DNA of 64,000 nt from an archaeon GW2011_AR5 (GTDB lineage Archaea > Aenigmatarchaeota > Aenigmatarchaeia > GW2011-AR5). The notes under the pieces were generated by a model, which saw only the letters and a list, made by a program, of their open reading frames with translations, did no database searches and was not told the DNA's origin. Below, one piece after another: positions 1 through 47,404 of the stretch (the stretch's first letter is position 1; every line of letters starts with the position of its first letter). The DNA lies in assembly GCA_000806115.1 (NCBI GenBank), contig JWKQ01000002.1:52497-116496 (forward strand), read 5' to 3'. Position numbers and translations under genes: made by a program.

Positions 1-252
1 TTCGCGAACTTGTTTGCCTGGAACGTCGGAACCCATTCGACGTTGAAGGCGGGATAAGCCCAGCCTTTGTCAGACTGCTTGAGCGTGAAAAGATGTCCTA
101 CGGCAGGCACGGCGACGAAAGGCTTCCCGTCCTTTTCAAACTCATACCAGAACACCTTCTCGCCCACTTTCTTCGGCTTGCCGTCGGCAAGCGCCTCTGC
201 TATCGCCTTCGCGGAGGTTGGTTTCTCGCATAGGATTAGTGTGTACGACATG
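1..252 (-). CDS. Type IA DNA topoisomerase, N-terminal TOPRIM fragment; the gene runs off the window start
   Basis: Minus-strand translation from the ATG at 250-252 gives MSYTLILCEKPTSAKAIAEALADGKPKKVGEKVFWYEFEKDGKPFVAVPAVGHLFTLKQ... This has an IxxEKPSxAKxIAxAL TOPRIM start and a VGH motif, as in archaeal/bacterial topo I/III. It is open to the window edge, so it is absent from the ORF track. A GGTGA sits 8 nt upstream of the ATG. Confidence 0.5.
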
Positions 253-270
253 AAAAAATCACCGATTAAT

Positions 271-1353
271 CTAATTTATAACTCCTTTTTGCCTTAGAAT
301 ACGTATATGGTAGTCTATTGTCGAAATATTCCTGTTCAATTCTTTGGCTATTTCAGTCCTTTTCCTGCCAGATTTGAGCAGGTTTATAACTAATTCCTTG
401 CTCTCCACTTGCCCATAGTGAGGTATCTGCTTGGAGTTCAGGATAGATTCTAATTTATTGGCTTTTTCTTTATGAATAAAGTCTATGCTTTCTTTGAATT
501 TCTTAAGATTCTCGTATCCCCGAACGTAGAAATAATAAAAATCAAATCCGTTATGATTCTTGTAACATACAGTCCCACATCTTATTCCAAATTCCTCTAT
601 CATTTTTCTTAAGTCAAAAAGCATGTTTTCATTGCTGCATGAAAGCTCTATATGCCTGTAAGGTGGCTTGAATTTTACTGAACCCTCGTCATCAGCAAAT
701 GCCTTGACAAAAGTCCTCTTTATTTCCGTATCATTGCTGTTCTTTATGAAATCCGGAATTCTACAGGTTTTGCCGTTGAAATCCGGAACAACAGTTTTTA
801 GGATTACGCCTACTGGGGAAGGCAAAGTCACGAAATCGACTCCCTTATTTTTAGATTGATATATTTCAAAATCTCCGAAGACTTTCCTTGTATGTTCTTT
901 GAAAATTTCAAGAAGCCCCCTGTCCTTGTTATAATAATGCACATGCAGATACCCATTCTTTTCAGTGCTTACACAGCCGTCACAAAAAAGATGGGCAATG
1001 ACCGAGGAAAGCTCAGGTGTTAGCGTGATTGGAAATTTTGGGTATATTGGTTTGCTTTTTGCGTTCCCGAAATTTCTGTTTTTGTAAAAACAGCTTTTCA
1101 ATTCTATTATATTTTGCTGTTCCTTATTCAGGTCGATTTCGCATAATCTGCAGATTTCAGAAAGAATTTTTAGGGGATAATTACTGTTTTTCCGCCATGA
1201 ACAAAGCGAGCCTGACCAGAGATTCATCACTTTTGCCAGTTTCCTGATGCTTCCATACTTCATAGTTACTGAATTATTTATCTTGTATGCAAATTCCTTA
1301 TTTAGCTTCACGAAGAATCTTTCAGAAGGCAGGTCGGTTATGTTTATTTGCAT
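271..1353 (-). CDS. LAGLIDADG-family homing endonuclease (two-motif, monomeric type) with a C-terminal helix-turn-helix
   Basis: 360 aa. Two LAGLIDADG-like motifs are present: IAHLFCDGCVS and VKAFADDEGSV. The C-terminal stretch TEIAKELNRNISTIDYHIRILRQKG is HTH-like. The gene starts 45 nt downstream of the RT gene on the same strand. Confidence 0.6.
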   Translation of the reverse strand: MQINITDLPSERFFVKLNKEFAYKINNSVTMKYGSIRKLAKVMNLWSGSLCSWRKNSNYPLKILSEICRLCEIDLNKEQQNIIELKSCFYKNRNFGNAKSKPIYPKFPITLTPELSSVIAHLFCDGCVSTEKNGYLHVHYYNKDRGLLEIFKEHTRKVFGDFEIYQSKNKGVDFVTLPSPVGVILKTVVPDFNGKTCRIPDFIKNSNDTEIKRTFVKAFADDEGSVKFKPPYRHIELSCSNENMLFDLRKMIEEFGIRCGTVCYKNHNGFDFYYFYVRGYENLKKFKESIDFIHKEKANKLESILNSKQIPHYGQVESKELVINLLKSGRKRTEIAKELNRNISTIDYHIRILRQKGVIN

Positions 1354-1398
1354 TTGGGCACCCTATTTTTTATTCTTAGATATAATATAGAGAAATGC

Positions 1399-2454
1399 TT
1401 ATAAAGATTGAGTGATTTTCTTCATGTTTTTTCTGATTCTGTTGCGAATCTTGTAAGTGTTTCCATGTACAGCGTAAGCGCACCATCCGCTGATTTTTGC
1501 GTCCAATTCTCCCTGTGATATGTTGCCGTTTTTGTAGTCTTCAGCAAGTTCTTCCATTCTGAGATTCATTGATCGCAAATTGCTCTTTTTCAGGAGCTTG
1601 TGGTGGTAAAAAATCCTGAACCCAAGAAAATTTGCTCCGCTGTGCAGTGCATATATTTTAGACTTATCTGGATGCAATTCAAGCTTCAGTGAATTTTTTA
1701 GAAATTCGTCTATTCTGGATTTCCACCATTCAAGAACCACTTTTTTGTCGTGCAGAATCACGAAATCATCAAGGTATCGTATGTAGAATCGTGCGCGGAG
1801 ATTATGCTTCACGAACTTGTCAAGCTCGTTGAGGTAAATGTTAGCGAAGAACTGTGATGTCAGGTTTCCTATGGGCATGCCTTTCCAGTTTTTAGTCGAA
1901 TGGTTTGCTACTATTTTCCTTATCAGGCTCATGACCTTATCGTCATTTATCTTCTTTGCCAGTATCTTTAGCAGTATTTCATGGTCAACTGTTTCAAAAT
2001 AGTGCCTTATATCGGCTTTTAGGAAGTACCCGATAGTCATGTTGCCGTCTTTGGCGTTCTTGACAAGTCGTCCGTTTTTGCTCGCTTTTCTCTTGAATGT
2101 GTCGAATCGTTTTATCGCTGCGTGAGTTCCTTTGCCTTTCCGGCTTGCATACGAATCATGTATGAATGATTTCTCGAAAAGCGGTTCTATGACGTTGCAT
2201 ATGGCATGGTGCACGACGCGGTCGCGAAAATGGGACGAGCTTATTGTCCTTGTCTTTGGGTCACGTATGACAAAATTCTTGAGGGGATGCGGCTGATAAG
2301 TGTCCGTCCTTAGTTCAGCCTCGAGCTTTGCCAGGTTCCTCTCAAGCTCTTTCTCGAATTTGTGCACATACCATTTTGAAGTCTTGTTTTTCCTTGCTTT
2401 CCTGTAAGCCAGAAGAAGGTTATCATAGGAGCAGATTTGATTATATAGATTCAT
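1399..2454 (-). mobile_element. Group II intron-type reverse transcriptase/maturase (RT + X domains, no endonuclease domain); possibly a free-standing group-II-like RT
   Basis: 351 aa. RT blocks are present: PIGNLTSQFFANIYL (RT4), RYLDDFVIL (RT5, YLDD rather than YADD) and LGFRI (RT7). A thumb/X-like GWCAYAVHGNTY follows. No space is left for intron domains V/VI before the next gene. Confidence 0.75.
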
Positions 2455-2939
2455 GAAAATCCCGGCAGGGCTGCTAGGACGAGAGGCAACCCTGTCAGTC
2501 GGCTCGCTTCTATGGAGGAACGATTTACCGGAGTTGAGCGGGTGCCTGTTCGCATTTGCGCTTCTTTTTCGAAGTCGGATGACGCATATGCGTCTGTTTG
2601 TTCCAAAAAGAATTGACGTTGAACCGGCCGTTTGCGAGTCTTGAGACTTGTCGCCGATGTCCGGGTTGAAGTTGCGCCCAACGAACCGTCTAGCTGCCTT
2701 ATCAAAGTCCTGAGACCACTGCTGCTTGAATTTGAAAAATTCTTGCAGATGTATTTTATGTCATCAGCGCCAGAGTGCGGCGCTTCGATATAAGGCAGCG
2801 TGTAGCCAGCTGCCGGGATAATTACACTTTCCAACACGTACACGACTTTAATCGCGGGTTCGCTTGGAAAATGGAATCCTGAATGCATCCCTGTATGTCG
2901 CCTGAAGACGGCAATTTCAGGCGCATTCAAGATGAACAA
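2451..2939 (-). other. Low-confidence ORF, probably chimeric; its C-terminal half is an out-of-frame read through a pseudogene fragment
   Basis: 162 aa. Its stop overlaps the RT start (ATGA). The low-complexity S/T-rich C-terminus coincides with the degenerate gene-fragment copy at 2476-2700. Confidence 0.2.
2476..2700 (-). pseudogene. Degenerate duplicate of the 3'-terminal coding region of CDS 3041-3754, with insertions and Asp-to-Asn substitutions
   Basis: Nucleotides 2476-2700 align to 3106-3215, with three insertions of about 20-70 nt. Translated in the homologous frame it gives FVGRNFNPDIGD...ANRHPLNSG...RVASRP, against FVGRDFDPDFGDYGRFYVLADRRPLDSGVDGVASRP in the intact gene. Confidence 0.45.
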
Positions 2940-3040
2940 GAAGGAAGAACTTAATATGTTATAAAAAGATCTATCTCTCTCTGGCGCTCGACAGGAAACA
3001 GAGGTTCATGTAACTTTCTTTGCGTGACTAGAATAAAAAA

Positions 3041-3754
3041 TTATGCCTTAGCTTCTGATGCAGTCCTGATGTCAATCTCGCCAATTACGTTATGTTCTGC
3101 ATAGGCGGGACGAGAGGCAACCCCGTCAACACCGGAGTCGAGCGGGCGCCTGTCCGCAAGGACGTAGAACCGGCCGTAGTCGCCGAAGTCCGGGTCGAAG
3201 TCGCGCCCAACGAACCTTTTGCCACCCTTGAAATTGTCAGGTCTGTAAAATCCTGATATTTCTACAGCAGGTAAGTCAAATTCTAAATAAGCTCTCTCTG
3301 CTTCTGCCCGCTCTTCGAAAGGCACTGTCTTTTCCGGAATGAGCGTGAACGGTTGGAAAAATCTATATCCTTTAACATTGTCCGCAATCGGGACAACCAG
3401 CCCTGGCTTTGGAGCCCATGCTTTGATGAGAATTTCATCGTCCCTGCCGTCATTTGACTTGTACAGGATAGGTATGTGTCCCTCGCTCGGAGACTGCTCG
3501 CCGCCGTGCATTCTGTCCTCTGCTGAATCATGCGTTATCTCTCCGTACCAGCTTCTTTTCCTGTCATTGTACCTCTTGACATCCCTGTCGTGAAAAGCGT
3601 TGTCAAATCTGTTGTGGCTGTATGCTGCAAAAATAGCATGACCAGGCGGTGCCTGCCTGTGAAGCTGTGCATAAGGGACTATGGTGCCCAGTTCCGGCAG
3701 TTCAAAAGGCACGTCAAACGAGCCCTTGTCTGTCAATACTCTGAAAACATCCAT
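3041..3754 (-). CDS. Hypothetical protein (no family recognised)
   Basis: 237 aa clean ORF with a protein-like composition. Its 3' end is duplicated as a degenerate fragment at 2476-2700. Confidence 0.45.
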   Translation of the reverse strand: MDVFRVLTDKGSFDVPFELPELGTIVPYAQLHRQAPPGHAIFAAYSHNRFDNAFHDRDVKRYNDRKRSWYGEITHDSAEDRMHGGEQSPSEGHIPILYKSNDGRDDEILIKAWAPKPGLVVPIADNVKGYRFFQPFTLIPEKTVPFEERAEAERAYLEFDLPAVEISGFYRPDNFKGGKRFVGRDFDPDFGDYGRFYVLADRRPLDSGVDGVASRPAYAEHNVIGEIDIRTASEAKA

Positions 3755-3827
3755 ATCTATCGTATTTTTCTTTATTGAGAAGCTTTTTAAAGCTTTCGAT
3801 TTGTTACCACTTTTAAGTTAGAAATTA

Positions 3828-5105
3828 CTACTGTTTATCGATAACTTTTGCGCCGTCCATGTATTGCTGCAAAGCCTTCGGCACTTCTATTGTGCCGTCT
3901 TCCTTCTGGTAGTTCTCCATTATGGCTATGATCGGCCTGTTTCCTGAAAGCGCAGTGTTGTTCAGCGTGTGCACAAAACCGGCGGGAGGCGCGCCCTCTT
4001 TCTCGCGGTATTTGACGTTGAGCCTTCTTGCCTGGTAGTCGGTGCAGTTGCTGTTCGAGCCGATCTCCCTGTACTGTCCGTCTGCCATGAGAAACTCCGT
4101 GTCGTATTTCTTGGCTGCCATTATGCCCATGTCGCCGGTGCAGACATTTACGACCCTGTGCGGTATTCCCAGCGTTTGATACAGCTCTTCGCTGTATCTT
4201 TGCATCTCTTCGTGAATTTTCCAGCTGTCTTCCGGAAGGCAGAATACAAACTGTTCTATCTTGTTGAAATGGTGCACGCGGAATATCCCGCGGGTGTATT
4301 TGCCGTGCGTGCCGACTTCTTTCCTGAAGCACGGCGAGATGCCTGCGAGCTTTATCGGTTTGTCCATGATTAGCGTCTCGTCCATGAACATGGCCGCCAT
4401 CGGGTGCTCGCTTGTCGCTATGAGGTGCAAATCCTCGCCCTCTATTTTATAGAGCACGTCTTCAAAATCAGCCAGGCTTGTCACGCCTTCGTAAGCTTTC
4501 CGCGACATCATGAAAGGCGGCTGGACAATCGTGAACCCTTTCTTTATCAGGAATTCCAGCGCGAACTGCTGGAGCGCCCGGTCGAGCATCACAAGCTGCC
4601 CCTTGAGATAGTAGAATCCGTGTCCTGCAATCTTCGCGGCGCGCTCTATGTCAAGCAGCCCGAGCCCTTCCGCAAGCTCGACGTGGTTTTTTGGCGTAAA
4701 ATCGAAGCTTTGCTTTCCCCATCTTTTTATCTCCTTATTTTCAGTGTCATCTTTGCCTATCGGCACAGATTCATGCAGCATATTGGGTATCTGCAGCAGC
4801 AGCTTCCTGCATTGGGCGTCGAGCTCGACGAGGCGTTCGTCCAGTTTTTTGATTTTGCCGGGAAGCTCGGCAGCCTCCTTCATGGAGGCGTCTGAAGGTT
4901 TTCCCTGCGCCTTCATTTCCATGATTGTCTTCGTTATGGTGTTCCTCTTCTGCTTCAGTTTCTCCACGTCCTGAAGCACGTCGCGGCGTTCCTTGTCGGC
5001 TTCAACCAGTTCGTGAAGCGCGTGCACGACGGCGGGGTCGTTCCTCTTTGAAAGGTTGTCCAGCACCTTCTCCGGCTGCTCGCGTACGAGTTTTATGTCA
5101 AGCAT
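3828..5105 (-). CDS. serS: Seryl-tRNA synthetase
   Basis: 425 aa. The N-terminal coiled-coil begins MLDIKLVREQPEKV and the class II core is recognisable. The length is typical. Confidence 0.9.
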   Translation of the reverse strand: MLDIKLVREQPEKVLDNLSKRNDPAVVHALHELVEADKERRDVLQDVEKLKQKRNTITKTIMEMKAQGKPSDASMKEAAELPGKIKKLDERLVELDAQCRKLLLQIPNMLHESVPIGKDDTENKEIKRWGKQSFDFTPKNHVELAEGLGLLDIERAAKIAGHGFYYLKGQLVMLDRALQQFALEFLIKKGFTIVQPPFMMSRKAYEGVTSLADFEDVLYKIEGEDLHLIATSEHPMAAMFMDETLIMDKPIKLAGISPCFRKEVGTHGKYTRGIFRVHHFNKIEQFVFCLPEDSWKIHEEMQRYSEELYQTLGIPHRVVNVCTGDMGIMAAKKYDTEFLMADGQYREIGSNSNCTDYQARRLNVKYREKEGAPPAGFVHTLNNTALSGNRPIIAIMENYQKEDGTIEVPKALQQYMDGAKVIDKQ

Positions 5106-5107
5106 AT

Positions 5108-5749
5108 CTAACTTTCACCTTTTGCTTCCTTAAAAAACTGCCTCAGATAACTTTCCATAAAATTATGCCTTTCTTCCGCCATTAGCCTTCCTGTTTTAGT
5201 GTTCATCCTGTCTTTCAGGAGCAGGAGTTTTTCATGAAAATGATTGATAGCCGAGCCTTCTGTTCTCTTATACTGTTCGAAACTCATATTTTCCCTTGCT
5301 TCAACAGAAGGGTTGAAAATTGGTATGTTCTTATAGCCTGCGTAGGTAAATGCCCGTGCAATCCCGAATGCCCCTATTGCATCCAGCCTGTCGGCATCCT
5401 GCACCACTTTGCCTTCAAGAGTCTGTATTTTATTTTGTTCCGCAGAGCCTTTGAATGAGATGTTCTCCACAATATGTATTATCTTTTCTGCCGTGCCGGA
5501 GTCCACTCCCAGGGATTGGAGCCATGCGGCGGATTTGACGGCGGTTTCATGGGAATTAAATTTGAAGTCGTCTATGTCGTGCAGCAAAGTCGCCATCTCG
5601 ACCACGAACAAATCAGCTCCCTCCTCCTTGGCTATCAGCTTCGCCGTGTTCCAGACGCGTTCTATGTGAAACCAGTCGTGCGTGGCGTCCTTGTATTCTT
5701 CCATATTCCGGCGGACGTACTCTTTTGTTCTTTCTATTGCATCTTGCAT
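5108..5749 (-). CDS. HD-domain phosphohydrolase
   Basis: 213 aa with H...HD motifs (WFHIERV, LLHDIDD). It lies 2 nt downstream of serS. Confidence 0.65.
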   Translation of the reverse strand: MQDAIERTKEYVRRNMEEYKDATHDWFHIERVWNTAKLIAKEEGADLFVVEMATLLHDIDDFKFNSHETAVKSAAWLQSLGVDSGTAEKIIHIVENISFKGSAEQNKIQTLEGKVVQDADRLDAIGAFGIARAFTYAGYKNIPIFNPSVEARENMSFEQYKRTEGSAINHFHEKLLLLKDRMNTKTGRLMAEERHNFMESYLRQFFKEAKGES

Positions 5750-5802
5750 ATAGTTAGTCTAAGTCAAGGTTTTTTAAAAATCTATCATTACATATTTAGA
5801 AT

Positions 5803-6102
5803 ATGCATAAAGCCCTGTTTCTGTTGAGAAAAATCCCGAAGGGCAAAGTCACAACATACGGCGAGCTTGCGCGCGTGACAAAGTCCAGCCCGCGCGCAAT
5901 AGGGCAGGTGATGCGGCGCAACCAGCATCCTGAATTGTATCCCTGCTACAAATGCGTGTCTGCCAGCGGCAGGATTCACGGCTATGACGGCTGCCTGAAG
6001 GGCGGGAAAGTTGACAAGAAAATATCGCTTTTGAAAAAAGACGGGATAGAAATAAGGAACAAAAGGGTTGATTTGTCAAAATATTTGCATAAGTTTGAGT
6101 GA
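5803..6102 (+). CDS. MGMT-family protein (methylated-DNA-protein-cysteine methyltransferase DNA-binding domain only)
   Basis: 99 aa. A HTH is followed by an active-site-like YPCYKCV where PCHRV would be expected. The MGMT N-terminal domain is absent. Confidence 0.5.
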   Translation: MHKALFLLRKIPKGKVTTYGELARVTKSSPRAIGQVMRRNQHPELYPCYKCVSASGRIHGYDGCLKGGKVDKKISLLKKDGIEIRNKRVDLSKYLHKFE

Positions 6103-6106
6103 TTGA

Positions 6107-6532
6107 ATGATAATAAGGCGCGCGAGGCTGTCGGATTATGAAGGATTGATTCCTCTTCTCAATGATTTTGTAGGGGATGACAGGTACTCTAGGCGGAACA
6201 ACGATTCGTTTGCGAAAATGTTAAGGGATTCAAGGAGCTTTGTATTTGTGGCTGAGGAAAAGAAGAAGCTGATAGGTTTTGTGACGTTCTGCGTGAGGAA
6301 GGTGGTGAGGTATTCCAAGCCGATAATGGAAATTGATGAAATGTACGTCTCGCCGGATTTCAGGAGAAAAGGCGTGGGAAAAAGCTTGCTGAAGCTGGCG
6401 GAAAAGAAGGCAAAAGAACTTGGCTGCAGGAAGATGTTTCTTGAATCTCACAAGGACAGGAAAGGCGCGCACAAATTCTACGCATCCATGGGCTATGAGA
6501 AAGGCGGGTATTATTTCGACAAAATGCTCTGA
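6107..6532 (+). CDS. GNAT family N-acetyltransferase
   Basis: 141 aa with an acetyl-CoA binding motif RRKGVGKSLL. Confidence 0.75.
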   Translation: MIIRRARLSDYEGLIPLLNDFVGDDRYSRRNNDSFAKMLRDSRSFVFVAEEKKKLIGFVTFCVRKVVRYSKPIMEIDEMYVSPDFRRKGVGKSLLKLAEKKAKELGCRKMFLESHKDRKGAHKFYASMGYEKGGYYFDKML

Positions 6533-7606
6533 TTATCTCGTGACCTGCTGCGCTTTGACAAAATCCGCCAGCTGCTTTGCCTTCCCTTTGGAAAGGTGTT
6601 TCCTGACGGGCTCCAGCAAGTCGTTGACGCGGCTGGATGTTGCGCTTTTCAGGTCCATTGGATGCAGCTTCCCCGCTTCAAAATCCCTGCAAAGCTCGCC
6701 TATGTTCGTATAAGTGACGTCGCCGCCGAACTTCTCCGGCCTTTCCACAGTAACCTCGTCGAAGCTCTCAAAAATTATGTACTGCATATATTCAATCAGC
6801 GGATTGTCATTTGTCTGTTTCTCGGGACAATACGCCTTCGATATCTTTCTCTCAACGTCCTGTGCAGAATCTGTCATGAATATTGCGCTGTCAGGGATGC
6901 TCTTTGACATCTTCATCGCTATGGCGCGTTCAACGGGGTCATTGACTCCTTCCGGCGGCTTGTTCAGTCCCATAAGCATGTGGTGGCTCACTACAACAGG
7001 CTTCCAGAAACCGAGCGATGGTCCAAGCTCTCTGGCAAGAATATTCACCTTTCTCTGGTCCATTCCAAGCTGGGTAATGTCGGCTTCCAGCTCGAAGATG
7101 TCTGCGCACTGCATGCACGGATAAATTATCTGGGAAGCTTTCTGGATTTCGTCCTCTTTCCTCCCCATGATCTGTCCGCATCTTATCACCCTGTTGACTG
7201 TGGTGTTCTGCGCAATCCTTATCACTTTTTTCCAGTATTCCTGGTCGTCTACAATGTCCACCGCGCGAATGAACTCGACTTTTTTTGTGTCCATCCCGGA
7301 AGCCTTCCAGACCTCGATAAGAAAGTCCCCGGCTTTCTGTATCTTCTCAAGGTCCCCGCCGAACTTTAGGTTGGTCCAGCCGTGCCAGTCGGCGGCGTAC
7401 ATCTTGAACTTGACGCCTGCTTTCAGCATCTTGTTGACGTTTATTGCACGAAGAATTCCCTGGGCTATATGCGGTATGCCTGACGGCTCAAAACCGTCGT
7501 AGGCAATGGGCTTTGTTTTCGTCTCTAGAAGTGAGCGCAGCTCCTCGCGCGTGACGATTTCCTCGCCGACTTCGCCGATAAGCTGCATGCGTTTTTCGAT
7601 GTCCAC
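6533..7606 (-). CDS. tyrS: Tyrosyl-tRNA synthetase (archaeal type)
   Basis: 357 aa with KMSKS. The C-terminus KAYCPE...NPLIEY...RPEKFGGDVTYT...LHPMDLK...LLEPVRKHL closely resembles archaeal TyrRS. Confidence 0.8.
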   Translation of the reverse strand: MDIEKRMQLIGEVGEEIVTREELRSLLETKTKPIAYDGFEPSGIPHIAQGILRAINVNKMLKAGVKFKMYAADWHGWTNLKFGGDLEKIQKAGDFLIEVWKASGMDTKKVEFIRAVDIVDDQEYWKKVIRIAQNTTVNRVIRCGQIMGRKEDEIQKASQIIYPCMQCADIFELEADITQLGMDQRKVNILARELGPSLGFWKPVVVSHHMLMGLNKPPEGVNDPVERAIAMKMSKSIPDSAIFMTDSAQDVERKISKAYCPEKQTNDNPLIEYMQYIIFESFDEVTVERPEKFGGDVTYTNIGELCRDFEAGKLHPMDLKSATSSRVNDLLEPVRKHLSKGKAKQLADFVKAQQVTR

Positions 7607-7607
7607 G

Positions 7608-8456
7608 TTAATTCCACGCTTTCCCGTATACCACTGAGTATACTTCCTTAAGCCTTCTTTTAAGTTTATCTGGGCAGTTCCTTCCGTTGCCCGAGTACCC
7701 GCAGACGATTTTGTAGTAGAGGTCGAGCAGCCGTATGAAGTACGCGCGGGTTGGTTTTGTCATCTGGTCCACTTTGTGCCCTATGTCTTCCTCCTCCATT
7801 AGCAGGAGCCTCGGTTTCTCTGTGCACAGGTAAGGCGGCATTGCCGAGCCGTCAAGCGACCTCCCGGGCTCCGTGTAGACGAATGTTGTCAGCGGCCCGA
7901 AAGTTCTCGTGTACATGTTGTCAAAGCGGCGCTCGTCAAAGTCCATTCCGTCGTGCTTCCATCCTATCTTTACCCCGTTCCCCGACTGCCTGAAGAACTC
8001 CATGTCGCCAACCTGAAGCCTCTCGTAAGTGTTCCCGTTCATCTTTACATCCCGCCTTGGCACTTCCGAGCCGAGCATTATCTCGAACCGGCGGAGGTCC
8101 AGCCTGTCAAGAAGGTTTTGCACGGAATCTCTTCGCGCGTTCGACACTCTCCTTACCGCATCCGGGTCGTTTCCGGATGCTGCATGCTCGTCCGCTATGA
8201 GAACCGTGGTCCTGTCAAGTTCGGCCCTTTCCCTCACGAGTTCTGCAGTCAGCACAAGTCCGAGTGCATCGAACGGCATATGCTCCGTGATCCCGTTCCT
8301 GTTTGACAGCCCTATCCCAAAATAGCAGCCCGTTGAGTTTTCGAGGTCTGAGCCCGGAACAAAATCGGTTATGTGCGGCTCGTCTCCAAGTCTCCGCCCA
8401 AGCGCGCGTTCGCTAACCATTCGTACCACCCATATGCTGGACCGCAGAATTTGCAA
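7608..8456 (-). CDS. Hypothetical protein
   Basis: 282 aa ORF. Its N-terminus overlaps the aspartate racemase by about 44 nt, so the true start is probably at an internal Met. Confidence 0.4.
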   Translation of the reverse strand: MQILRSSIWVVRMVSERALGRRLGDEPHITDFVPGSDLENSTGCYFGIGLSNRNGITEHMPFDALGLVLTAELVRERAELDRTTVLIADEHAASGNDPDAVRRVSNARRDSVQNLLDRLDLRRFEIMLGSEVPRRDVKMNGNTYERLQVGDMEFFRQSGNGVKIGWKHDGMDFDERRFDNMYTRTFGPLTTFVYTEPGRSLDGSAMPPYLCTEKPRLLLMEEEDIGHKVDQMTKPTRAYFIRLLDLYYKIVCGYSGNGRNCPDKLKRRLKEVYSVVYGKAWN

Positions 8457-9395: not shown

Positions 9396-9497
9396 GAATT
9401 ATAGTTAACCCAGAAAAGATTTCGGACATGAATTCTGGGTTAACAGATAGCTCACAAGGAAGTAATATCCTGTTTAATTCCTTGTAGAGCTATAATC
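9396..9497. promoter_or_regulatory. Palindromic promoter element E1: hairpin-1 (gttaacccagaa/ttctgggttaac) + AGATAG + hairpin-2 (ctcacaagga/tccttgtagag) + CTATAAT
   Basis: A perfect 12 bp inverted repeat lies at 9404-9444 and a 10 bp-stem palindrome at 9451-9489. A minus-strand TATA-like aattatag sits at 9397-9404, about 30 nt upstream of the regulator ATG at 9368. The element is about 85% identical to the copy at 47303-47404. Confidence 0.6.
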
Positions 9498-9553
9498 AGC
9501 TGTTTAATTAACGCATAAGGGCTTTTAAGCATTCTGGGCAGCTTTGGCTGGCT

Positions 9554-9613
9554 TTCCTTGTATCTCACAAGGAAATAATATTGCCTAGATTGTTTCCTTG
9601 TAGAGCTATAAAG
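9554..9613 (+). promoter_or_regulatory. Palindromic promoter element E2 (hairpin-2 module only), fused to a GCTATAAAG TATA box about 25 nt upstream of the ATG at 9636
   Basis: tatctcacaaggaaataatattgcctagattgtttccttgtagagctataaag matches the hairpin-2 half of E1/E3. The spacing from TATA to start codon is consistent with a leaderless archaeal promoter. Confidence 0.6.
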
Positions 9614-47302: not shown

Positions 47303-47404
47303 TATATAGTGAACCCACAAACATGCCTGAATTCTTTTGTGGGTTCACAGATAGCTCACAAGGGAGTGATATTATCCAGATTATTTCCTTGTAGAGCTAT
47401 AATC
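47303..47404. promoter_or_regulatory. Palindromic promoter element E3 (hairpin-1 gtgaacccacaaa/tttgtgggttcac + AGATAG + hairpin-2 + CTATAAT), upstream of glyA; it overlaps the last 15 codons of the 5-FCL gene
   Basis: About 85% identical to E1 over about 100 nt. There is a perfect 13 bp inverted repeat at 47309-47348. The 5-FCL stop codon (47356-47358) lies inside the element. Confidence 0.6.

What the first reader, a model, noticed from the sequence alone, without database searches (positions are those of the whole stretch)
1399..2454. The RT has YLDD instead of YADD at its active site and no space for intron domains V/VI
The sequence shows RYLDDFVIL at nt 1765-1776 (tac ctt gat gat on the minus strand). 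The RT stop at 1399 is only 45 nt from the next gene start at 1353. The intervening sequence is AT-rich (tatattatat) and has no hairpin resembling domain V. Canonical mobile group II intron RTs carry YADD followed by domains V-VI 3' of the ORF. Deviation at this position (for example YIDD in G2L4-type group-II-like RTs) is associated with free-standing, host-domesticated RTs. By inference this RT may be a non-intron, group-II-like RT, which is unusual in an archaeal genome.
Basis: partly seen in the sequence, partly recalled or inferred. Interest (0 to 1): 0.55.

Follow-up and report, generated by a model that had tools for sequence, protein, structure and literature searches.

The report
Archaeal diversity-generating retroelement with intron-split template
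The reverse transcriptase belongs to a diversity-generating retroelement (a system that rewrites part of one gene with mutated copies of a template), not to an intron, and unusually its template carries three small archaeal tRNA-type introns that are missing from the rewritten gene, so the template RNA is evidently spliced before it is copied.

Summary
ORF 1399..2454(-) is a 351-aa RT with YLDD at 1765-1776. A 45-nt AT-rich gap follows it, and no group II ribozyme domain is detectable.

The RT is not a G2L-type orphan. It is the RT of a diversity-generating retroelement (DGR), the commonest RT type in DPANN archaea; the organism is archaeon GW2011_AR5. Its best solved relative is Bordetella bRT. 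It has the IGNLTSQ motif, and YLDD/YVDD/YMDD are the normal variants in its clade.

Directly upstream lie an RT-16 RNA (Rfam RF03019) and a template repeat (TR, 2687..2477). The variable repeat (VR, 3216..3108) is the 3' end of ORF 3041..3754.

The unexpected part is that the TR is split by inserts of 17, 58 and 27 nt that are absent from the VR. Each insert fits an archaeal bulge-helix-bulge (BHB) intron. Excising them at the canonical cleavage positions gives a TR with no non-A mismatch to the VR, and all 13 mismatches fall at TR adenines.

Twenty-one such inserts in 11 related DGRs behave the same way. I found no paper linking DGRs and BHB introns. All evidence is computational.

The parts
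1399..2454 (-). DGR reverse transcriptase, 351 aa. It has no Avd domain and no endonuclease domain.
   Evidence: Pfam RVT_1. Best PDB match is Bordetella bRT 8ub7, E 5.3e-50 over residues 2-335. The identical protein is named 'RNA-directed DNA polymerase [archaeon GW2011_AR5]'.
1765..1776 (-). YLDD catalytic motif (aa 227-230).
   Evidence: Clade distribution is YVDD 83, YLDD 18, YMDD 13.
1852..1872 (-). IGNLTSQ (aa 195-201), the [I/L]GxxxSQ motif typical of DGR RTs. bRT has IGSLTSQ at the aligned position.
   Evidence: The motif is present in 118 of the 120 closest homologues.
2459..2468 (-). 3' strand (CUGCCGGGAU) of a long-range helix that pairs with the first bases of RT-16. It lies between the TR end and the RT start codon.
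   Evidence: Ten perfect base pairs here, and the helix covaries in relatives.
2477..2497 (-). TR exon 4. It includes the A-poor, GC-rich 3' boundary GGGUUGCCUCUCGUCC, shared exactly with the VR.
2498..2524 (-). TR intron 3, 27 nt: CGGU AA^A UCGUU..AGCGA GCCG AC^U.
   Evidence: H 4/4, h' 5 bp, h 2 bp. It is the only BHB-fitting placement of the 2 that are compatible with the VR. The BHB core is present in the unconstrained MFE fold.
2525..2555 (-). TR exon 3.
2556..2613 (-). TR intron 2, 58 nt: ACGU CA^A UUCUUUUU...AAAAAGAA GCGC AA^A.
   Evidence: H 3/4 (outer A.C mismatch), h' 8 bp, h 2 bp. It is the only BHB-fitting placement of 5. The h' helix is in the MFE fold; H is not.
2614..2631 (-). 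TR exon 2.
2632..2648 (-). TR intron 1, 17 nt: GCGA CA^A GUC-UCAA-GAC UCGC AA^A.
   Evidence: H 4/4, h' 3 bp, h 3 bp. It is the only BHB-fitting placement of 4. The BHB core is in the MFE fold.
2649..2687 (-). TR exon 1.
2685..2816 (-). RT-16 RNA (Rfam RF03019), directly abutting the 5' end of the TR.
   Evidence: 52 bits against a gathering score of 50. The same element sits in the same place, at 55-80 bits, in 10 related loci.
2810..2819 (-). 5' strand (AUCCCGGCAG) of the long-range helix.
3108..3216 (-). Variable repeat (VR), 109 nt, encoding aa 180-216 of the target protein.
   Evidence: Scored over the 107 nt 3216..3110 against the spliced TR: 0 mismatches at 84 non-A positions and 13 mismatches, all at TR adenines. 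It is the only such site in the 64-kb window. The shared CC that extends the repeat to 3108 is shown.
3041..3754 (-). DGR target gene, 237 aa. It has no Pfam or NCBIfam family.
   Evidence: Sequence variants between samples differ only inside the VR. AF2 model has pLDDT 95 and no Foldseek neighbour.

Best explanation
The locus is a chromosomal diversity-generating retroelement of a DPANN (Aenigmarchaeota-type) archaeon. Its gene order on the minus strand is: target gene with the VR at its 3' end, then RT-16 RNA, then TR, then RT.

Proposed mechanism:
1. An RNA containing RT-16 and the TR is transcribed.
2. The three inserts in the TR fold into bulge-helix-bulge motifs.
3. The host tRNA-splicing endonuclease (EndA) cuts them out, and the exons are joined by the RNA ligase RtcB.
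4. The RT copies the spliced 109-nt template, misincorporating at adenines.
5. The cDNA replaces the VR, changing up to about 15 codons of the target protein's C-terminal region.

Shown here:
- The RT belongs to the DGR type.
- The TR/VR pair differs only at TR adenines.
- The three TR-only inserts have BHB geometry.
- The exon junctions are reproduced exactly in the VR.
- The same arrangement recurs in relatives.
- The target protein varies between samples only within the VR.

Inferred, not shown:
- That EndA and RtcB are the enzymes.
- That splicing precedes reverse transcription rather than the RT skipping the inserts.
- How cDNA synthesis is primed.
- Why the introns are kept. Possibilities are neutral intron spread, breaking the TR-VR DNA homology into 18-39 bp pieces so that the two cannot recombine, or gating mutagenesis by splicing.
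For: **DGR identity**
- Best solved relative is bRT (5.3e-50), against group II RTs at 1e-26 or weaker. The IGNLTSQ motif is present.
- Spliced TR against VR over 107 nt: 13 mismatches, all at TR adenines, and 0 of 84 non-A positions differ.
- In frame, the spliced TR reads RFVGRNFNPDIGDNGRFNVNANRHPLNSGNDRVASR, with nine AAY codons.
- Relatives have VR, RT-16, TR and RT in the same order, with A-only mismatches.
- P0126 is 96% identical to the target, and all 9 of its differences lie in the VR at A-containing template codons. These include the three codons that span the splice junctions. A sister cluster (P0122, P0127, P0130) shows the same pattern.

**Introns**
- For each of the 3 inserts, exactly one of the 2-5 VR-compatible placements has a 4-bp helix (4/4, 3/4, 4/4) between two 3-nt bulges, cut after the second bulge base, with h' of 3, 8 and 5 bp.
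- Random placements of the same lengths meet the loose criterion about 0.75% of the time. The joint probability for the three, corrected for the number of placements, is 1.7e-5.
- The same rule reproduces the canonical 37/38 intron of a tRNA-Thr in a related DPANN locus.
- Twenty-one inserts of 17-58 nt were found in 11 DGR loci. Twenty fit strictly and one fits with a single h' mismatch.
- Orthologous introns sit at the same 3 template positions in the window, L051 and L023/L024. Positions 2 and 3 are also occupied in L020 and L022. The hairpins are unrelated in sequence but still pair, and the outer pair of helix H shows G-C to A-U and C-G to U-A changes.
- Each lineage's VR follows its own TR at non-A positions. 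Homing has therefore continued since the introns were acquired.
- Helix strand H5' is retained while its partner H3' is removed. This asymmetry is the BHB signature and is not what hairpin skipping would leave.
- The three bacterial relatives with readable TR/VR pairs have uninterrupted TRs.
- The BHB cores of introns 1 and 3 appear in the unconstrained MFE fold.
Against: - There are no RNA data. Splicing is inferred only from the DNA 'record' in the VR.
- The central helix of intron 2 has an A.C mismatch and is not in the MFE fold.
- EndA and RtcB genes were not located in the window. They were not searched for systematically; I rely on their universality in archaea.
- No Avd accessory protein was found in the window, so the cDNA-synthesis machinery differs from the Bordetella model.
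- The six metagenome copies of this locus are 100% identical, VR included. Evidence for diversification rests on one variant protein plus the sister lineage.
- The orthologous introns are not statistically independent, so the summed log10 p of -25 overstates significance.
- The key DPANN DGR survey (Paul et al. 2017, Nat Microbiol) could not be read. Prior mention cannot be excluded.
Confidence: 0.85

Rival explanations
1. It is a DGR, but the inserts are not spliced. The RT jumps across the base of each hairpin during cDNA synthesis.
For: Each insert contains a stable hairpin. RTs of this superfamily can switch templates (established knowledge). No RNA evidence for splicing exists.
Against: Skipping a hairpin would remove both strands of a helix symmetrically. 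Here the 4-nt strand H5' is kept and its partner H3' is removed, with 2+1 bulge bases partitioned exactly as EndA does, in 21 of 21 inserts (20 meet the strict criteria, 1 has a single h' mismatch). Interrupted TRs were seen only in loci named archaeal or in unassigned metagenome contigs, never in the three bacterial relatives. All junctions are precise, with no heterogeneity.
Confidence: 0.07
2. It is a decaying DGR. The inserts are recent insertions into the TR, and the intron-less VR is a relic of earlier homing.
For: The six metagenome copies show no VR variation. The unspliced TR has no in-frame stop, and 17+58+27 = 102 is a multiple of 3.
Against: The same three positions are occupied in relatives whose RTs are only 65-70% identical. 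Each of their VRs matches its own TR at non-A positions, so homing post-dates intron gain. VR-only variants exist between samples. Random insertions would not all have BHB geometry. The RT ORF is intact.
Confidence: 0.04
3. One reading: a free-standing, domesticated group-II-like (G2L4-type) RT acting in DNA repair or another host function.
For: There are no ribozyme domains. The motif is not YADD. After bRT, group II RTs are the next-best matches.
Against: A cognate TR/VR pair with adenine-only differences lies directly upstream. The DGR-type IGNLTSQ motif is present. bRT is by far the best solved match. All close homologues sit in DGR cassettes.
Confidence: 0.02
4. It is the RT of a mobile group II intron, or a retron or defence RT (DRT, Abi).
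For: There are weak sub-threshold matches: group_II_RT_mat 174 bits, Drt3a 71 bits and retron St85 57 bits.
Against: All are far below their curated cut-offs of 300, 200 and 235 bits. No intron RNA family was found. No msr/msd-like element was found.
Confidence: 0.01

Closest known systems
Bordetella phage BPP-1 DGR (bRT, Avd, TR, mtd VR)
   Same: The RT is homologous (E 5e-50). The non-coding TR lies next to the RT. The VR is at the 3' end of the target gene. Differences are confined to adenines. The 3' boundary is GC-rich and A-poor. The template RNA needs structured flanks (PMC6182149).
   Different: No Avd gene is detectable. Only 22 nt separate the TR from the RT gene, against a 144-nt spacer in BPP-1. 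A different upstream RNA is present (RT-16, where BPP-1 has avd sequence and the RT-10 motif; PMC5737381). The TR is interrupted by three introns. The element is chromosomal in an archaeon, not in a phage (one search found no viral relatives).
DGRs of DPANN and nanoarchaeal archaea (Paul et al. 2015 Nat Commun; Paul et al. 2017 Nat Microbiol; surveyed in PMC5758913 and PMC8144416)
   Same: Same host group, same RT clade and same compact cassette. About 60% of the relatives examined here have ordinary, contiguous TRs of 76-126 nt.
   Different: None of the DGR papers I could read mentions interrupted TRs. TR/VR finders that expect near-gapless repeats would see only the 39-nt first block here. 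For example, the repeat finder reported only 2650-2700 against 3179-3229.
Archaeal bulge-helix-bulge introns of tRNA, rRNA and a few mRNAs such as cbf5 (PMC7714728, PMC6379350, PMC2738675)
   Same: Two 3-nt bulges flank a 4-bp helix, with outer helices h and h'. Lengths are short (17-58 nt). Several introns can sit in one short RNA. Hairpin sequence evolves quickly while positions are conserved.
   Different: The host RNA is the template of a retroelement, not a tRNA, rRNA or mRNA. The spliced product is reverse-transcribed into the genome, so the splice junction is written into DNA. All three junctions in this window fall inside the mutable AAY codons.
Engineered self-splicing intron in the BPP-1 TR (Guo et al. 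2008, Mol Cell; from my own knowledge, not read here)
   Same: An intron placed in the TR is absent from the VR after homing. That experiment was the classic proof of an RNA intermediate.
   Different: That was an artificial group I intron in a bacterial phage. Here the introns are natural, protein-spliced, multiple and conserved.
Group II intron RTs and G2L4-type RTs
   Same: Related palm, finger and thumb architecture.
   Different: This RT has no ribozyme, a sub-threshold score against the group II model, and a TR/VR partner.

Membership tests
Diversity-generating retroelement (DGR) | RT of the DGR clade, with the [I/L/V]GxxxSQ motif. | tested here: met
   bRT (8ub7) is the best PDB match at E 5.3e-50, and it aligns IGSLTSQ to IGNLTSQ. 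The motif is present in 118 of 120 homologues.
Diversity-generating retroelement (DGR) | A TR/VR repeat pair whose differences are confined to TR adenines. | tested here: met
   After removal of the three inserts, 13 of 13 mismatches are at A and 0 of 84 non-A positions differ.
Diversity-generating retroelement (DGR) | VR inside (at the 3' end of) a protein-coding target. TR non-coding and close to the RT. | tested here: met
   The VR encodes aa 180-216 of the 237-aa ORF 3041..3754. The TR ends 22 nt before the RT ATG.
Diversity-generating retroelement (DGR) | An accessory protein (Avd or HRDC). | tested here: not met
   A profile of the Avd domains from Avd-RT fusion homologues finds nothing in the six-frame translation of the window (best E 0.8). 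There are no Pfam hits on neighbouring ORFs. Some homologues carry an N-terminal bAvd domain; this RT does not. Avd could be encoded elsewhere in the genome.
Diversity-generating retroelement (DGR) | An IMH-like GC-rich 3' boundary with a hairpin downstream of the VR. | tested here: inconclusive
   The shared A-poor end GGGTTGCCTCTCGTCC is present. No convincing hairpin follows the VR.
Diversity-generating retroelement (DGR) | Evidence of diversification. | tested here: met
   P0121 and P0126 differ at 9 residues, all within the VR. The sister cluster behaves likewise. However, six assembled copies of this locus are identical.
Archaeal BHB (bulge-helix-bulge) intron | A 4-bp helix flanked by two 3-nt bulges at the exon-intron boundaries (PMC7714728, PMC6379350). 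| tested here: met
   Intron 1 has 4/4 pairs, intron 2 has 3/4 and intron 3 has 4/4. Each has a unique placement among those the VR allows. The geometry rule was validated on a tRNA-Thr 37/38 intron.
Archaeal BHB (bulge-helix-bulge) intron | Outer helices h (exon side) and h' (intron side) of at least 2 bp. | tested here: met
   h is 3, 2 and 2 bp; h' is 3, 8 and 5 bp.
Archaeal BHB (bulge-helix-bulge) intron | Precise excision, with the exons ligated in the product. | tested here: met
   The evidence is indirect. The VR, a cDNA-derived copy, has exactly the predicted junctions, and the junction adenines are themselves mutated (AAC to TAC, AAT to CTT, AAT to GTT).
Archaeal BHB (bulge-helix-bulge) intron | Cleavage by EndA and ligation by RtcB. 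| not testable with these tools
   Needs enzymology or RNA-seq.
Archaeal BHB (bulge-helix-bulge) intron | Conservation of the structure, with sequence change, in relatives. | tested here: met
   There are 21 inserts in 11 loci. Orthologous positions carry unrelated hairpin sequences, and helix H shows compensatory changes.
Mobile group II intron | Ribozyme domains, with D5/D6 3' of the ORF and D1-D4 5' of it. | tested here: not met
   No Rfam group II family was found at E<=10 in 1..8000 or at gathering score in the window. Only 45 nt follow the ORF.
Mobile group II intron | The RT/maturase passes the curated family model. | tested here: not met
   TIGR04416 scores 174 bits against a cut-off of 300.
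G2L (group-II-like) free-standing RTs | Membership of the G2L clades, with no associated template or target repeats. | tested here: not met
   A TR/VR pair is present. A formal phylogeny against G2L reference sequences was not possible because none were on hand.
RT-16 RNA (Rfam RF03019) | A score at or above Rfam's gathering threshold. | tested here: met
   52.0 bits against 50 here, which is marginal; hairpin P1 cannot form locally. It scores 55-80 bits at the same place in 10 relatives.

The most novel reading that the evidence does not exclude
This is a previously undescribed class of DGR, common in Aenigmarchaeota-type archaea, whose template RNA must be processed by the host tRNA-splicing endonuclease and ligase before it can be reverse-transcribed. 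BHB introns would then be working parts of a retroelement. For example, they could keep the invariant TR DNA from recombining with, or being overwritten by, the VR, or they could gate mutagenesis. Every VR would be a genomic record of an archaeal RNA-splicing event. In addition, the diversified protein has a confidently predicted fold with no detectable structural neighbour, which may be a third scaffold for DGR variation besides C-type-lectin and Ig-like folds.
Probability: 0.5. Interest if true: 0.88.

Novelty: new variant of a known kind. Interest (0 to 1): 0.8.

Why it matters
As first stated, the finding is ordinary: a DGR RT in a DPANN archaeon. What lies beside it is not.

1. It would be the first natural case, to my knowledge and in the 8 million papers searched, of introns inside a DGR template. 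It is a natural replay of the classic engineered-intron experiment that proved an RNA intermediate.
2. It adds a new substrate class for the archaeal BHB splicing machinery, beyond tRNA, rRNA and one or two mRNAs.
3. It has a practical consequence. DGR finders that require contiguous TR/VR repeats will miss or mis-annotate such elements, and about 40% of the close relatives sampled here are of this kind.
4. It makes a concrete question testable: why do some templates carry introns? Candidate answers are protection of the template against recombination, regulation, and selfish spread.
5. It places the orphan RT-16 RNA motif in a defined position within a DGR cassette.

Tried and rejected
**Identity of the RT**
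- Group II intron: rejected. There is no ribozyme family at permissive thresholds, and the RT is below the curated cut-off.
- Retron, DRT or Abi RT: rejected. All matches are far below their cut-offs.

**Other cassette components and context**
- Avd: searched with a profile of Avd domains from fused homologues and with Pfam. Nothing was found in the window.
- Additional VRs or targets in the 64-kb window: none.
- Close relatives on viral contigs: none.
- ARAGORN and Rfam found no tRNA in the window, so no same-genome intron control was possible. A tRNA-Thr from the related locus L010 was used instead.

**Evidence for diversification**
- VR variation among six metagenome copies of the locus: all are 100% identical.
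- P0125, a 'variant' of the target with a different C-terminus: rejected as an artefact. Its scaffold L053 has a run of N and foreign sequence inside the VR.

**Methods that needed correcting**
- My first two automated gapped TR/VR scans were wrong. One aligned sequences to themselves and the other used gap penalties that were too loose. They were replaced by a stricter scan.
- The 3- and 6-nt TR/VR length differences in L027, L033 and L046 are codon indels in AAC-rich runs, not introns.

**Target protein**
- No PDB sequence match, Pfam family or NCBIfam family.
- The first AF2 run, with 11 sequences, failed (pLDDT 32). The second, with 51 sequences, succeeded, but Foldseek found no neighbour in PDB or BFVD. 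A C-type-lectin fold is therefore neither shown nor excluded.

**Literature**
- Paul et al. 2017 and the supplements of Wu et al. 2018 could not be read.
Full report
**1. The observation**

ORF 1399..2454 on the minus strand encodes a 351-aa protein with a Pfam RVT_1 domain. YLDD occupies aa 227-230, which is nt 1776..1765. The stop codon is 45 nt from the ATG of the next ORF (271..1353), and the spacer is AT-rich. Rfam found no group II intron family, either at E<=10 over 1..8000 or at gathering score over the whole window. Every sequence fact in the finding is therefore correct.

The motif is not unusual, however. Among the 120 closest homologues it is YVDD in 83, YLDD in 18 and YMDD in 13, with no YADD.

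**2. What the RT is**

- The closest solved structure by sequence is the Bordetella phage DGR RT bRT (8ub7, E 5.3e-50). Group II intron RTs follow at 1e-26 or weaker.
- bRT's IGSLTSQ aligns with IGNLTSQ here (aa 195-201). This motif is present in 118 of the 120 homologues.
- NCBI's group II RT/maturase model scores 174 bits against a cut-off of 300. Retron and DRT models score far lower.
- The identical protein is deposited as 'RNA-directed DNA polymerase [archaeon GW2011_AR5]', and many homologues are from Candidatus Aenigmarchaeota.
- DGRs are reported to make up about 80% of RTs in DPANN archaea (PMC8632793). This is the expected kind of RT for this host.

**3. The cassette**

Reading the minus strand upstream of the RT shows a degenerate copy of the 3' end of ORF 3041..3754. 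Rfam places an RT-16 RNA (RF03019, 52 bits against a gathering score of 50) at 2816..2685, directly abutting the copy.

RT-16 is one of the orphan 'RT motifs' of Weinberg et al. 2017. The authors suspected some of these motifs of belonging to DGRs (PMC5737381).

Thirteen genome loci and 26 metagenome loci encoding relatives were fetched. Where the repeats are on the contig, the order is VR, then RT-16, then TR, then about 30 nt, then RT. The TRs are 76-126 nt, and the TR/VR mismatches are at TR adenines. This is a standard compact DPANN-type DGR.

**4. The anomaly**

In the window the TR (2687..2477) is 211 nt long but the VR (3216..3108) is 109 nt. The homology is split into four blocks by TR-only inserts of 17, 58 and 27 nt. 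I removed the inserts and compared the 107 nt from 2687 to 2479 with the VR.
- None of the 84 non-A positions differs.
- There are 13 mismatches, all at TR adenines.
- In frame, the joined template reads RFVGRNFNPDIGDNGRFNVNANRHPLNSGNDRVASR, with nine AAY codons.
- All three junctions fall inside AAY codons (GAC A|AC, GUC A|AU, GGU AA|U).
- The junction adenines are themselves mutated in the VR, to TAC, CTT and GTT.

**5. The inserts are bulge-helix-bulge introns**

The archaeal splicing endonuclease recognises two 3-nt bulges separated by a 4-bp helix, closed by outer helices h and h' (PMC7714728, PMC6379350).

I first fixed the geometric rule: the exon ends with helix strand H5' plus two bulge bases, and the intron ends with strand H3' plus two bulge bases. 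This rule reproduces the canonical 37/38 intron of a tRNA-Thr in the related locus L010. I then scored every placement of each insert that the VR allows.

Exactly one placement per insert fits:

| Intron | Coordinates | Motif | H | h' | h |
|---|---|---|---|---|---|
| I1 | 2648..2632 | GCGA CA^A GUC-UCAA-GAC UCGC AA^A | 4/4 | 3 | 3 |
| I2 | 2613..2556 | ACGU CA^A UUCUUUUU...AAAAAGAA GCGC AA^A | 3/4 | 8 | 2 |
| I3 | 2524..2498 | CGGU AA^A UCGUU...AGCGA GCCG AC^U | 4/4 | 5 | 2 |

Random placements of the same lengths in this window satisfy even the loose criterion (H>=3, h'>=3) only about 0.75% of the time. Corrected for the number of allowed placements, the joint probability for the three is 1.7e-5.

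The BHB cores of I1 and I3 appear in the unconstrained minimum-free-energy fold of the 231-nt RNA. For I2 only h' appears.

**6. Comparative support**

The closest relatives have the same feature.
- L051 (RT 70% identical) has three inserts of 29, 43 and 48 nt at the same three template positions.
- L023/L024 (69%) also have three, judged by homology only because the VR is off the contig.
- L020 (66%) and L022 (65%) have introns at positions 2 and 3.
- L054 and L056 (named Candidatus Aenigmarchaeota), L055, L007, L026, L048 and L050 have one to three each, some at other positions.

In total there are 21 inserts with a VR to compare, in 11 loci. Twenty have one and only one BHB-fitting placement. 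One fits with a single mismatch in h'.

Hairpins at orthologous positions are unrelated in sequence and length but always pair right up to the bulge. At position 2, for example, they are UUCUUUUU/AAAAAGAA, AUUGGCAA/UUGCCAAU, UCCUU/AAGGA and UCUGCUGAAG.../...UUUCAGCAGA. The outer pair of the central helix shows G-C to A-U and C-G to U-A changes.

Each lineage's VR follows its own TR at non-A positions, for example GGG against GGT in exon 1 of the window and L051. Homing has therefore continued after the introns were gained.

The bacterial relatives (L012, L014, L018) and about 60% of the archaeal ones have uninterrupted TRs. The only other length differences are 3- or 6-nt codon indels.

**7. 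Activity**

Six metagenome contigs carry this locus with 100% identity over 3.5 kb, including the VR. However, the 90%-identity cluster of the target protein contains P0126, from another run, which differs at 9 residues. All 9 are inside the VR at A-containing template codons, and they include the three junction codons. The sister lineage (P0122, P0127, P0128, P0130) varies in the same way. A third cluster member, P0125, is an assembly artefact, because its scaffold breaks inside the VR.

**8. Mechanism, and what is inferred**

The shown and inferred steps are listed under the best explanation. Two arguments decide between the readings.
- Against RT hairpin-skipping: the excision is asymmetric. 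Strand H5' is retained, H3' is removed, and the bulge bases are partitioned 2+1. Interrupted TRs also appeared only in loci named archaeal or in unassigned metagenome contigs, never in the bacterial relatives.
- Against recent insertion into a dead element: the evidence is in sections 6 and 7.

No Avd was found in the window. Some homologues are Avd-RT fusions. Only 22 nt separate the TR from the RT gene, so priming probably differs from the Bordetella Sp-A56 mechanism (PMC6182149).

**9. Other features of the DGR RNA and its target**

The 10 nt at 2468..2459, just after the TR, are perfectly complementary to the first bases of RT-16 (2819..2810). This long-range helix covaries in relatives and would enclose RT-16 and the TR.

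The target protein belongs to a family with 79 representatives at 50% identity. Its AlphaFold model is confident (pLDDT 95, pTM 0.92). It has no Foldseek neighbour in PDB (best E 1.5) or in BFVD (best E 0.09).

**10. Novelty**

Full-text searches found no relevant paper. The combinations tried were 'diversity-generating' or DGR with 'bulge-helix-bulge', BHB, 'splicing endonuclease', EndA, RtcB and 'tRNA intron'. The DGR surveys and reviews I could read do not mention interrupted templates.

**Verdict**

The finding as written is an ordinary DGR RT misread as a G2L-type RT. The locus it points to is a new variant of a known system and deserves experimental follow-up.

Noticed in passing
window 2810-2819 and 2459-2468 (minus strand); also L051, L020, L022, L007, L008, L016, L019, L028, L034: A long-range helix pairs the first bases of RT-16 with the 8-12 nt that follow the TR, just before the RT start codon. 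Here it is AUCCCGGCAG/CUGCCGGGAU, 10 perfect bp. It covaries in relatives, for example UCCUAGCCA/UGGCUAGGA and AUCCCAGC/GCUGGGAU. In other loci the same 5' strand can also form Rfam's local hairpin P1. In the window that local hairpin cannot form because the loop would be 1 nt. The helix may define the ends of the DGR RNA or the priming site.
   Followed up: partly
window 3041-3754 (minus strand): The DGR target protein (237 aa) has no Pfam, NCBIfam or PDB sequence match and no obvious signal peptide. Its AlphaFold model is very confident (pLDDT 95), yet it has no Foldseek neighbour in PDB or BFVD. It is either a strongly diverged C-type-lectin-like fold or a new scaffold for DGR variation. 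The family has 79 representatives at 50% identity.
   Followed up: partly
window 271-1353 (minus strand); L021, L023, L024, L052: A free-standing LAGLIDADG_3 protein with a C-terminal winged-helix/HTH domain sits between the RT and a type IA topoisomerase gene, which starts at about window 250 on the minus strand. The RT-LAGLIDADG order is kept in L023/L024. In L021 the LAGLIDADG domain is an intein inside the topoisomerase itself. The free-standing gene may therefore be a former intein endonuclease.
   Followed up: partly
window 2451-2939 (minus strand): A 162-aa ORF that public assemblies call as a gene overlaps the RT-16 RNA and the whole TR, in a different frame from the VR. It has no family match. 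No equivalent gene is called in L051, L020 or L022. It is most likely a spurious call.
   Followed up: partly
L053 (ERZ28563641 scaffold_228622), about 730-885: This scaffold of a closely related strain breaks inside the VR, with a run of N and unrelated sequence. That produces an artefactual protein variant (P0125). Downstream of exon 3 the scaffold switches to a 95%-identical variant. In that variant intron 3 is 22 nt, with a changed but still pairing hairpin (UCGU/ACGA).
   Followed up: yes
P0044, P0050, P0051, P0112, P0116 (RT homologues, 58-60% identical): Some relatives are fusions of an N-terminal bAvd-like domain (PF22296) to the RT. The gene call for P0050 appears to start inside the TR, because its N-terminus reads ...NANANRR...
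   Followed up: partly
L010 4153-4238: A tRNA-Thr(CGU) of a Woesearchaeota relative carries an 11-nt canonical 37/38 BHB intron. It was used here as the positive control for the cleavage-position rule. Rfam also reported over-long tRNA matches in L007 (104 nt) and L022 (88 nt). ARAGORN run with introns allowed resolved no intron in either.
   Followed up: partly
window 9433-9613 and 47337-47404: A repeat of about 70 nt (for example TATCTCACAAGGAAATAATAT...CCTTGTAGAGCTATAA) occurs twice in tandem near 9.4-9.6 kb and again 37.8 kb away, at 84-89% identity. Its nature is unknown.
   Followed up: no
window 1-64000: Neither Rfam at gathering score nor ARAGORN finds a tRNA or any other known RNA family in the 64 kb, apart from RT-16.
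   Followed up: no
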